64,000 nucleotides of DNA, from NCBI GenBank assembly GCA_051294375.1, contig CM119264.1, positions 27,291,340 to 27,355,339 of the forward strand, given 5' to 3'. The position numbers and the translations under genes are program-made. The DNA comes from Paraspadella gotoi. Its lineage: Eukaryota > Animalia > Chaetognatha. The notes below the pieces were generated by a model. That model had not been told where the DNA came from, did not search any database, and saw only the letters and a program-made list of their open reading frames with translations. Position 1 is the first letter of the stretch, and the number at the start of each line of letters is the position of its first letter. Shown here piece by piece: positions 3,001 to 4,529 of the stretch.

Positions 3001-4529
3001 CTACGTCCTCGGCCTCGGCGACCGACATCTCACCAACATTCTCGTCGACTGCCAAACGGCGGAACTCGTACACATCGACTTTGGAATTGCCTTTGATCAG
3101 GTGCTGTTTAATATCGCTCGTGTAATACACTGCAATGTGATTCGTGTAGTCGGGCATTGCCTAGGTTCACCCCGCTATAAGCATGACTCTTTCAGGTGTG
3201 ACCCGGTGGCTCATTGAGTAAAGCCATCAGCTCATGACACTAGGTACCGGGTTCAATCCCAACCCGGTACCTACCCTGCGGGAAGAGTGAGGACGGCCGT
3301 AAGCCGCCTTGGGGGGATGGCAAACCCTCAAGCCTGGTTCCAAGCCCAGGACCCGTTCCATGTCTGCTAGAGGGGGTTATAGAAGTTACGGATAGTCATC
3401 TTCTGCCCACTTAGCGCCTTATCCACACTGGTGAGCCCATCCTGTCGAGCGTATTCCAACCTTCTGATTCCAGGCCCATGGACGTGCCGAAGATTGCTCC
3501 CCTCCCTCCACTGGAAGCAGTGTAGGGTGGGTTACAATCTGGGGGCATGTAGTCGGGCATTGCCTAGGTTCACCCCGCCTATAAGCATGACTCTTTCAGG
3601 TGTGACCCGGTGGCTCATTGAGTAAAGCCATCAGCTCATGACCACTAGGTACCGGGTTCAATCCCAACCCGGTACCTACCCTGCGGGAAGAGTGAGGACG
3701 GCCGTAAGCCGCCTTGGGGGATGGCAAACCCTCAAGCCTGGTTCCAAGCCCAGGACCCGTTCCATGTCTGCTAGAGGGGGTTTAAAGTTTACGGATAGTC
3801 ATCTTCTGCCCACTTAGCGCCTTATCCACATTCGATGAATTATTAAAATAGGGTCGCATTCTACCCGTTCCCGAGACGATCCCATTCCGACTCACGCGCG
3901 ACATTTTAGATCCCATGGGAATCAGTGGAGTCGATGGAGTCTTCACCCGATGTGCCGAGATCGTCCTCGGCGCCATGCGGGAGGGCCAGGTGGGCTAAAT
4001 CTTTAAATCGAGGTCAATCTGTGTAGAGAGGGAGAGATTTCCTCCCCCCTCATTTGGCATCGTTTTCTTTTGTCACCAGGGTGCGATCCGGTCGATCCTC
4101 GATGTCATCCTTCACGATCCGATGTCTTCTTGGACTCTTTCTCCGGCCAAAAGGCTGCAGATTCAAAAAGTGAACCGCGTAGCGCTGAGATGAACTTTTC
4201 ATTATAGTTACATATAAAATGTAATTTTAAAATCTTATTCCCATTTTTGTTTTTTCCCCCAGGATCGCCTGGAAGACCGAGAAGAAGCCGGCGTTGCTTC
4301 AACGACGACCTCTCGTTTGCCGATTGGCGTCTCCACTGCTTCTGGCGCCAACACCCTTGCCAAACGCGTTCTATCCGAACTCTCTCAAAAGCTCTCCGGT
4401 CACGTGGGCGGTGCGCGCGTCATGGGGCGTGGTCTGAGCGTCGAGGGTCAGGTCAAGCACCTCATACAAGAGGCCACGGATCCTGTCAAGTTATCCGCTC
4501 TTTTTCACGGGTGGAAGCCTTTCGCATAA
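1..4529 (+). CDS. ATM: Serine/threonine kinase ATM, 3' portion (FAT, PI3K-like kinase, FATC); multi-exon, 5' end outside window
   Basis: Exon translations [92 protein letters not shown] and the C-terminal [35 protein letters not shown] match ATM rather than ATR; GT-AG introns. Confidence 0.96.
3207..3260 (+). promoter_or_regulatory. tRNA-like internal Pol III promoter (A box/B box) in LTR, repeated in the second LTR
   Basis: TGGCTCATTGAG (A-box-like, 3207) and GGTTCAATCCC (B-box, 3250-3260) at tRNA-like spacing. Confidence 0.65.
3278..3356 (+). ncRNA. Twister ribozyme, type P5 permutation (LTR A copy 1)
   Basis: gcggg(P5)..agt GA gga(T1') cggccg(P1) T^AA gcc(P2) GCC ttggggg..ccctcaa(P3) G cctgg(P4) T tcc(T1) AA GC ccagg(P4') a cccgt(P5'); predicted cleavage 3300/3301. 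P2 is short and has one mismatch. Confidence 0.82.
3683..3760 (+). ncRNA. Twister ribozyme, type P5 (LTR A copy 2)
   Basis: Same motif as 3278-3356; predicted cleavage 3705/3706. Confidence 0.82.

What the first reader, a model, noticed from the sequence alone, without database searches (positions are those of the whole stretch)
3145..3830. Candidate new system: animal LTR retrozyme carrying a twister ribozyme in each LTR
Seen: a complete 686-bp non-coding element with two ~283-bp TG...CA LTRs, a TGG PBS candidate, a G-rich PPT and a 4-bp TSD (TTCG). Each LTR holds the full ordered twister core (GA-T1'-P1-UAA-P2-GCC-P3-G-P4-U-T1-AA-GC-P4'). Known: plant LTR retrozymes have this architecture, but with hammerheads, and make circular RNAs; the metazoan retrozymes I know of are non-LTR hammerhead tandems. 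Inference: cleavage at 3300/3301 and 3705/3706 would release a 405-nt monomer with 5'-OH and cyclic-phosphate ends that could be circularised and copied by a Ty3/Gypsy partner. I am not aware of a described twister-based LTR retrozyme in animals but cannot check novelty here.
Basis: partly seen in the sequence, partly recalled or inferred. Interest (0 to 1): 0.95.

Follow-up and report, generated by a model that had tools for sequence, protein, structure and literature searches.

The report
Twister-ribozyme LTR retroelement in an invertebrate
A small, protein-free jumping element, repeated at many sites in an invertebrate genome, carries in each end repeat a tRNA-like promoter signal followed by a conserved 'twister' self-cutting RNA motif, and it likely copies itself through a self-cut, probably circular RNA, a route so far described (in the papers searched) only for plant elements that use a different ribozyme.

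Summary
3145-3830 has two 283-bp TG...CA LTRs, a 120-bp core with a TGG primer site, and a TTCG target duplication. It sits in an ATM intron that is 61 nt without it. Short-read contigs show dozens of unrelated flanks at both exact LTR ends, so it is a multi-copy mobile family, not an artefact.

Each LTR holds a complete type-P5 twister core (both pseudoknots, catalytic G and A). Rfam scores it below threshold, but a descriptor finds it far above chance, and family variation avoids the core.

Most likely mechanism: Pol III transcription, two self-cuts, a 405-nt circle, copying by a Gypsy-type partner (about 0.5). Main rival: the ribozyme only makes the 3' end of a linear template. Cleavage, circles, Pol III use and the partner are untested. 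Ten literature searches found no twister-bearing LTR element.

The parts
3145..3427 (+). 5' LTR, 283 bp, TG...CA
   Evidence: contigs leave the LTR into unrelated flanks exactly at 3145 and 3427 (table 7)
3548..3830 (+). 3' LTR, 283 bp, TG...CA
   Evidence: core-to-LTR-start joint seen in contigs of 3 of 4 runs (table 5); loose ends at 3830
3141..3144 (+). left copy of 4-bp target-site duplication TTCG
3831..3834 (+). right copy of target-site duplication TTCG
3176..3181 (+). TATA-like hexamer about 24 nt upstream of the tRNA-like head (role inferred)
   Evidence: sequence
3200..3273 (+). tRNA-like head: A-box-like TGGCT at 3207, B-box GGTTC at 3250, long T-arm-like hairpin; predicted Pol III promoter; not a tRNA gene
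   Evidence: ARAGORN 0 genes; 2 of 74 positions vary against 17 of 76 in the rest of the LTR
3278..3356 (+). type-P5 twister motif of LTR1: P5 3278-82/3352-56; P2 3285,3287,3288/3303-05; GA 3289-90; T1 3291-93/3339-41; palindromic loop-less P1 3294-99; predicted cut U3300^A3301; T2 3306-07/3344-45; P3 3309-15/3325-31; P4 3333-37/3346-50
   Evidence: Rfam partial hit
3428..3547 (+). 120-bp non-coding core: primer-binding-site-like TGGTGAGCCC at 3429-3438 and short G-tract at 3541-3545
   Evidence: LTR-to-core junction bridged by a contig in X1 (3336-3528) and seen as a loose end in X10
3604..3678 (+). tRNA-like head of LTR2 (A-box-like 3611, B-box 3655)
3683..3760 (+). type-P5 twister motif of LTR2; predicted cut 3705/3706
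3301..3705 (+). predicted 405-nt monomer released by two cuts (inferred)
3101..3851 (+). host intron of an ATM kinase gene, same strand as the element; 61 nt once the element and one TSD copy are taken out
   Evidence: a contig of run X9 joins the flanking exons (tables 7, 8)
13783..14037 (-). sister family: 255-bp TG...TA unit with tRNA-like head and degenerate P1-type twister-like motif, followed by the same 10-nt primer site (13780-13771) and a G-tract near 13579; no second LTR
8664..8908 (-). second copy of the sister unit, 245 bp, no core; weak twister-P1 match
   Evidence: (19.0 bits, E 0.25)
14327..14581 (+). related 255-bp TG...TA solo unit flanked by ATAT/ATAT, with a near-complete P1-type twister at 14472-14542
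   Evidence: (27.1 bits, E 0.0012, gathering 67.2)

Best explanation
This is one copy of a multi-copy, protein-free miniature LTR retrotransposon whose LTRs each hold a tRNA-like head and a conserved type-P5 twister motif; it is likely transcribed by RNA polymerase III, predicted to cut itself once in each LTR, and the 405-nt piece would be closed into a circle that a Gypsy-type partner likely reverse-transcribes and inserts. Steps: (1, shown) LTR/primer-site/G-tract/TSD anatomy, many insertion sites, conserved head and ribozyme core. (2, inferred) Pol III starts near 3195-3200 and, with no run of four T in the element, reads through both LTRs into the flank. [quoted passage not shown] Cutting may need the two palindromic P1 strands of the two LTRs to pair (a double twister), or may work as a monomer with a vestigial P1. 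(4, inferred) An 8-bp helix (3303-3310 with 3694-3702) holds the monomer's two ends in a 5-nt loop, a suitable substrate for a host RtcB-type ligase, and blocks re-cutting of the circle. (5, inferred by analogy with plant retrozymes) A tRNA primes at the primer site and the partner's RT runs round the circle to rebuild both LTRs; its integrase makes the 4-bp TSD.
For: Element: (a normal 61-nt intron is restored). Loose ends with low-agreement flanks lie exactly at 3145 (34 contigs in X1, 30 in X5) and at 3427 (70 X1, 64 X4, 53 X5, 21 X9), from 3 studies, one of which may be the assembly's source.

Ribozyme: all pseudoknot pairs are Watson-Crick. The same 19-nt P4/L4 module lies in a twister context in 13 of 32 viral and metagenome loci by my descriptor; L004 is a P5-type with the same T1 pair. 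Of 79 ribozyme positions, 7 vary at 5% or more; 5 of the 7 lie in the 13 unpaired positions (P = 0.001) and the other two keep pairing (C-G to U-G; G-U to A-U). No listed variant falls in 3287-3302, 3304-3315 or 3325-3361. A P3 G-U becomes G-C in all 4 X10 contigs listed there. Twister P1 and P2 flaws are well tolerated in a test of natural P1-type twisters (PMC11662667, passages).

Head: A/B-box motifs and no T4 run; most Helenus LTRs seen have a T-tract right after the head.

Circle: double cleavage leaves no R repeat, which is the argument for a circular template in PMC4918200 (Discussion). The end-clamping helix has probability 0.93 in the linear monomer and is in the circular MFE; plant retrozyme RNAs also hold their ribozyme blocked. 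RtcB circularised metazoan retrozyme RNAs in vitro (PMC7229834).

Recurrence: a sister family with a different twister permutation shares the 10-nt primer site.
Against: No cleavage, circle, Pol III transcript or partner was observed. Rfam stays below gathering score. P2 is 3 bp with a bulge and P1 cannot form a normal hairpin; no loop-less P5-type twister was found in viral contigs (0 loci). In a pseudoknot-free model the competing helix has probability 0.91-0.98 and P2 0.0, and the twister secondary structure is 13 kcal/mol above the MFE, so this copy may cut poorly. The circular monomer is only modestly structured (62% paired, z -1.5). G3718A (4% in X4) would break a P3 pair, and 36 variant rows were hidden. 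The variation test uses depth-weighted contigs from local alignments and a structure I drew myself; the sites are not independent events. The purine tract is short and the primer tRNA is unidentified. Sister-family motifs are degenerate (T1, P2 and P4 each have a mismatch in the best copy).
Confidence: 0.5

Rival explanations
1. The twister is active but works as a leaky 3'-end maker, replacing the T-tract of ordinary Helenus LTRs. Transcripts that escape cutting in LTR1 and are cut in LTR2 (3200-3705, 506 nt) keep a 101-nt terminal repeat and are copied by the ordinary linear LTR route; circles are by-products or absent.
For: The ribozyme sits where most Helenus LTRs seen have a T-tract, and the element has no T4 run. 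The competing helix could make cutting leaky. A palindrome-dependent ribozyme could not cut until LTR2 is made. R would be 101 nt and identical at both starts.
Against: Both LTR ribozymes are identical in the core, so single cutting needs kinetic luck. The helix that clamps the monomer's ends suits ligation. Plant elements of the same plan accumulate circles (PMC4918200).
Confidence: 0.27
2. The twister is a passenger, captured with a SINE- or Penelope-derived piece, and is inactive or irrelevant. The element moves as an ordinary Helenus-type TRIM, and the invariance of the core reflects recent amplification.
For: Sub-threshold Rfam score; flawed P1 and P2 and a strong competing helix; degenerate motifs in the sister copies. 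Kojima proposes that TRIMp3 arise by SINE insertion into an LTR (PMC10886601).
Against: Neighbouring LTR segments vary at 17 of 76 positions against 2 of 66 constrained ribozyme positions (Fisher P = 0.0005), so recent amplification alone does not explain the invariance. Two different permutations sit at the same place in two families.
Confidence: 0.18
3. The two repeats are a long-read assembly duplication, or a SINE or Penelope-type tandem rather than an LTR element.
For: LTR1 and LTR2 differ mainly by single-base gaps typical of long-read error; no laid contig spans the whole element.
Against: Independent short-read contigs hold both the LTR-to-core and core-to-LTR junctions, both ends are exact across dozens of flanks, the TSD is perfect, and removal restores a 61-nt intron.
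Confidence: 0.03

Closest known systems
Plant LTR retrozymes (Cervera, Urbina, de la Pena 2016, PMC4918200; passages and Discussion read)
   Same: Non-coding, two LTRs each with a self-cleaving motif, primer site, purine tract, 4-bp TSD; two cuts would leave no R repeat; ribozyme predicted blocked in the monomer fold.
   Different: Animal host; twister (type P5) instead of type III hammerhead; tRNA-like head; smaller (LTR 283, core 120, monomer 405 nt against LTRs of 300-400 and cores of 300-600); cleavage and circles are shown for the plant elements, not here.
Helenus / TRIMp3 (Kojima 2024, PMC10886601; main-text parts 1-4 of 6 and supplement parts 1, 7, 9 of 11 read, plus 3 motif searches)
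   Same: TRIM under 1 kb with tRNA-like A/B boxes in the LTR, primer site, purine tract, 4-bp TSD in animals, presumed Gypsy partner.
   Different: The paper has 0 occurrences of 'twister' and 'self-cleav'. This element's L4 strings, LTR start and primer site are absent from its sequence file (line wraps could hide a match). Most Helenus LTRs seen have a T-tract after the head; this one has a ribozyme there.
Type-P5 twister ribozyme (Rfam RF02684; class description recalled, Roth et al. 2014 not read)
   Same: Order of blocks, both pseudoknots, GA, UAA, L4 loop; the 19-nt P4/L4 module is identical to that of L004.
   Different: P1 is a loop-less 6-nt palindrome, P2 is 3 bp with a bulge, P3 and P5 stems are both present; score below the gathering threshold.
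Twister variants at the 5' end of Perere-3/RTE non-LTR retrotransposons (PMC8501958, abstract and one results section; mention in PMC7761336)
   Same: Twister motif used by an animal retroelement, with a weak P1.
   Different: Those are P1-type, one per element, at the 5' end of non-LTR elements; here one per LTR in a non-autonomous LTR element.
Metazoan non-LTR retrozymes (PMC7229834; bioRxiv 10.64898/2026.07.22.740005; passages)
   Same: Small non-coding animal repeat with a ribozyme; monomer of similar size; some act as dimers.
   Different: Type I hammerhead tandems without LTR, primer site or purine tract, linked to Penelope elements.

Membership tests
LTR retrozyme | Two LTRs around a non-coding core with primer site and purine tract | tested here: met
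   smaller than plant examples, purine tract short
LTR retrozyme | 4-bp target-site duplication | tested here: met
   TTCG at this one locus; TSDs of other copies could not be read
LTR retrozyme | Type III hammerhead in each LTR | tested here: not met
   no hammerhead family among 12 Rfam matches at E up to 10; a twister motif instead
LTR retrozyme | Primer site for tRNA-Met shared with Ty3-gypsy elements | tested here: inconclusive
   TGG start present; the window's only tRNA gene (Leu-type, intron-bearing) matches 5 nt only; no genome to find the tRNA or partner
LTR retrozyme | Self-cleavage and accumulation of a circular monomer | not testable with these tools
   only contigs were available
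Helenus / TRIMp3 | TRIM under 1000 bp with LTRs, primer site, purine tract | tested here: met
   686 bp
Helenus / TRIMp3 | tRNA-like LTR segment with box A (TRGCY ... YGG) and box B (GGTTC) | tested here: met
   TGGCT at 3207 and GGTTC at 3250; the YGG half of box A is imperfect; segment conserved in the family; definition
Helenus / TRIMp3 | 4-bp TSD in animal members | tested here: met
   definition
Helenus / TRIMp3 | Transcription by RNA polymerase III | not testable with these tools
   also unvalidated for Helenus itself
Helenus / TRIMp3 | Sequence kinship with a described Helenus family | tested here: inconclusive
   short-motif searches of the paper's sequence file found none; no alignment against that file was possible
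Twister ribozyme, type P5 | Ordered core P2'-GA-T1'-P1-UAA-P2-GC-P3-G-P4-U-T1-AAGC-P4' with both pseudoknots pairing | tested here: met
Twister ribozyme, type P5 | P1 closed as a hairpin and a regular P2 | tested here: not met
   loop-less palindrome; P2 of 3 bp with bulge; such flaws were tolerated in P1-type tests
Twister ribozyme, type P5 | Rfam RF02684 gathering score | tested here: not met
   22.3 against 37.6 bits
Twister ribozyme, type P5 | Site-specific self-cleavage at U^A | not testable with these tools
   needs in vitro transcription
Metazoan non-LTR retrozyme | Tandem hammerhead repeats lacking LTR, primer site and purine tract | tested here: not met

The most novel reading that the evidence does not exclude
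Animals have their own LTR retrozymes: a class of Pol III-driven miniature LTR elements that swap in different ribozymes at one position behind a tRNA head (P5-type twister here, P1-type twister in the sister family, a type III hammerhead in two published gall-wasp Helenus LTRs) and spread through self-made RNA circles. In this family the twister would cut only as a dimer, through its palindromic P1, so that complete two-LTR transcripts are processed and solo LTRs are not.
Probability: 0.35. Interest if true: 0.9.

Novelty: new variant of a known kind. Interest (0 to 1): 0.74.

Why it matters
The papers read divide retrozymes into plant LTR elements and animal non-LTR tandems, both with hammerheads, and treat Helenus LTRs as carrying only a promoter. 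This element joins those kinds: an animal LTR element with a tRNA head and a twister. If it cuts and circularises, it extends the circular-RNA route of retrotransposition to animal LTR elements and to a second ribozyme class. It would also give twister ribozymes a concrete biological role and show how a Pol III LTR element defines its RNA ends. A dimer-dependent twister would be a new mode for that ribozyme. All of this can be tested with a 686-bp PCR product and a northern blot.

Tried and rejected
Whole-genome copy search: no genome is held.

Expression: no RNA holder listed. Run X9 is a guessed RNA run kept as contigs; its summed depth gives the core a smaller share relative to the LTR than the three DNA runs do, but contig depth cannot rank expression, so this is used neither way. 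No molecule start or end sites could be read (tables 6 empty).

Relatives in public collections: the 19-nt P4/L4 pattern gave 5 viral and 27 metagenome loci; none matched the element beyond 21 nt. A pattern for loop-less P5 twisters gave 0 viral loci. A control pattern gave 4 loci that my parser did not read, so they were not used.

One X4 contig shows a double change that keeps the P1 palindrome (table 5c). Rejected as covariation: both changes are CpG-type transitions and the same contig breaks T1'.

A P1-type reading using the purine run near 3370 was rejected: the descriptor gave only P5-type hits. A MAFFT alignment with natural P5 twisters was out of register and unused. The head is not a tRNA gene. 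The cores of this element and the sister family show no significant similarity (17 of 200 shuffles score as high). Empty-site alleles and other copies' TSDs could not be read from contig tables.

Earlier-findings look-ups by sequence, by genome and by two word sets returned nothing. Literature searches for a twister-bearing LTR/TRIM or tRNA-headed element; none listed one. Paywalled papers, Repbase/Dfam and the supplements of the original twister paper were not seen and could hold it.

Full report
Observation. The element is at 3145-3830 as described: two 283-bp LTRs (TG...CA; 97.5% by BLAST; 280 identical columns and 6 single-base gaps in a global alignment), a 120-bp core and TTCG on both sides. 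The core starts C-TGGTGAGCCC and ends in a short G-tract 2 nt before LTR2. It has no long reading frame. It lies on the sense strand of intron 3101-3851 of an ATM kinase gene; without the element and one TSD copy that intron is 61 nt. The host is an animal: the window's tektin-3 exon has its best named hits among molluscs, annelids and nemerteans (about 67-75% identity). I read this as a spiralian-like invertebrate and go no finer.

It is a mobile family, not an artefact. No genome is held, so I used public runs. Of 15 listed, 9 of organism A from 3 studies hold 37-56% of the sampled words; one study may be the assembly's source. I laid 6 of the 15 runs, all kept as contigs. In one search, 460 to 6365 contigs per run lay on the stretch. 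Contigs left the LTR into unrelated, low-agreement flanks exactly at 3145 (34 in X1, 30 in X5) and at 3427 (70, 64, 53 and 21 in X1, X4, X5, X9); the table was cut, so these are the listed rows only. The core-to-LTR joint is present in 3 of 4 runs and one X1 contig bridges LTR to core. A biofilm run (X10, 10 contigs) and a run labelled as another organism (X12, 2 contigs) hold close relatives. One X9 contig joins the ATM exons on either side; whether that individual carries this insertion is unknown.

The ribozyme. Rfam finds nothing at gathering score. In E-value mode Twister-P5 ranks first in both LTRs (22.3 bits, cut-off 37.6, E 0.031) but borrows the P3 loop as its 5' half. Mapped by hand, the fold is complete: P5 5/5 pairs, T1 3/3, T2 2/2, P3 7/7, P4 5/5, with GA at 3289-90 and U^AA at 3300-02 (the role of these bases is recalled from the twister literature). 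A post hoc descriptor hit only these two sites in the window, 0 in 20 Mb and 1 in 20 Mb of two Markov controls, and recognised 13 of 32 fetched loci that share the P4/L4 module. L004 is a P5-type motif with the same T1 pair. There are two departures: P2 has 3 pairs with 3286 bulged, and P1 is CGGCCG with no loop. A test of natural P1-type twisters found P1 and P2 flaws well tolerated (PMC11662667, passages); another paper notes that cleavage without P1 is inefficient (PMC8501958).

Family variation supports constraint. Among substitutions at 5% or more (table 3, counted by position; indel rows left out, one of which adds a G at the end of P4'), 7 of 79 ribozyme positions vary. Five lie in the 13 unpaired positions (P = 0.001) and two keep their pair. 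Constrained ribozyme positions vary at 2 of 66, the tRNA-like head at 2 of 74, and the rest of the scored LTR at 17 of 76 (P = 0.0005 and 0.0002). These are depth-weighted contigs, not independent events. At the 2% level one P3-breaking change appears (G3718A, 4% in X4) and 36 rows were hidden. The X12 contig over 3640-3782 has 4 substitutions, none in the core, and 2 added G.

(1) Upstream of the ribozyme each LTR has a tRNA-like head with box A- and box B-like motifs (3207, 3250), and the element has no run of four T on that strand. This is the definition of Helenus/TRIMp3, whose animal members also make 4-bp TSDs and are thought to use Gypsy partners (PMC10886601). That paper never mentions twister or self-cleavage, and most of its LTRs that I saw have a T-tract right after the head. 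By eye, two of its gall-wasp LTRs instead carry a type III hammerhead there (motif recalled, not scored). (2) The palindromic P1 can pair between two copies (-10.7 kcal/mol; a 6-mer is palindromic by chance 1 time in 64), which would give a double twister between LTR1 and LTR2. (3) A competing 8-bp helix (3289-3297 with 3303-3310) dominates the pseudoknot-free fold (probability 0.91-0.98). In the released monomer the same helix joins the two ends (0.93) in a 5-nt loop. (4) The window holds related units: 14037-13783 and 8908-8664 (minus strand, 89% alike over 380 columns including flank) and 14327-14581 (plus, flanked by ATAT/ATAT). They have tRNA-like heads and P1-type twister-like motifs (Rfam 27.1 bits, E 0.0012 for the 14.5-kb copy; 19.0 bits for the 8.7-kb copy; no hit for the 13.9-kb copy). 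The 13.9-kb copy is followed by the same 10-nt primer site. Their ends could also be read as a SINE with a TAA-rich tail, and their motifs are degenerate.

Mechanism. Most likely (0.5): Pol III starts at the head, reads through both LTRs, and the two ribozymes release a 405-nt RNA with no terminal repeat. Such an RNA cannot make the usual strand transfer, which is the published argument for a circular template in plant retrozymes. The end-clamping helix would present the ends to a host ligase (RtcB joined metazoan retrozyme RNAs in vitro) and then keep the circle from being cut again. A Gypsy-type RT and integrase would finish the cycle. The anatomy, multiplicity and conservation are shown; everything from transcription onward is inferred. 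My component estimates are: real LTR family 0.97, functional twister in the family about 0.8, circle as the template about 0.6 given function. Rival one (0.27): the ribozyme replaces the T-tract as a leaky 3'-end maker, and a singly cut 506-nt RNA with a 101-nt R is the template. Rival two (0.18): a captured passenger. Artefact: 0.03. Against the lead reading: the sub-threshold Rfam score, the flawed P1 and P2, the 13 kcal/mol gap between the twister's secondary structure and the MFE in a model blind to pseudoknots, and the modest folding of the circle (z -1.5).

Comparison and novelty. It works like a plant LTR retrozyme but fails that family's hammerhead criterion. It meets the structural definition of Helenus/TRIMp3 but adds a ribozyme not described for it. 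It is not a non-LTR retrozyme. A 2026 preprint still states that LTR retrozymes are primarily plant elements with type III hammerheads. Ten full-text searches listed no twister-bearing LTR element; the library lacks paywalled papers, and Repbase, Dfam and the original twister paper's supplements were not seen. Papers seen as passages only: PMC6765202, PMC7761336, PMC7229834, PMC10085705, PMC13570524, 10.1101/2022.07.19.500677 and 10.64898/2026.07.22.740005. Verdict: a new variant joining two known kinds; interest 0.74, and about 0.9 if the circle and dimer steps hold.

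Noticed in passing
window 13783-14037 (-), 8664-8908 (-), 14327-14581 (+): Sister units of 245-255 bp with tRNA-like head and P1-type twister-like motif. The 13.9-kb copy has the same 10-nt primer site, a core of about 211 bp and a G-tract but no second LTR, and is bounded by an 8-bp direct repeat inside a loosely palindromic AT-rich host repeat.
   Followed up: partly
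PMC10886601 supplement, Helenus-2_SyJa-LTR and Helenus-2_SyUm-LTR: By eye, both published gall-wasp LTRs hold a type III hammerhead right after the tRNA-like head and lack the usual T-tract; the paper does not mention it. These would be animal LTR retrozymes already in a public data set.
   Followed up: partly
window 3157-3173 and 13544-13560: A 17-nt stretch near the LTR start matches, 16 of 17, the arm of the AT-rich palindromic repeat around the 13.9-kb unit; meaning unknown.
   Followed up: partly
window 25900-26015 (-): Intron-bearing tRNA gene (Leu-type by eye), Rfam 50.7 bits.
   Followed up: no
window 11161-12345, 23468-25413, 39875-40264: Nested inverted-repeat, MITE-like AT-rich elements of one or two families.
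   Followed up: no
L004/L017, L002, L003/L005 (P5-type); L018, L020, L021, L023, L026, L027, L029, L031 (P1-type): Twister-like motifs in viral and metagenome contigs; L018, L026, L027 and L031 each give a second descriptor hit about 430 bp away.
   Followed up: no
window 3101-3851: A predicted self-cutting motif lies on the sense strand inside an ATM intron, 44 nt from the 5' splice site and 21 nt from the 3' end; an effect on ATM mRNA is possible but untested.
   Followed up: no
window 3145-3830: The LTR1-LTR2 differences are mostly single-base gaps and the LTR2 form near 3777-3800 is poorly covered by short-read contigs, so the two LTRs may really be identical and the insertion very recent.
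   Followed up: partly
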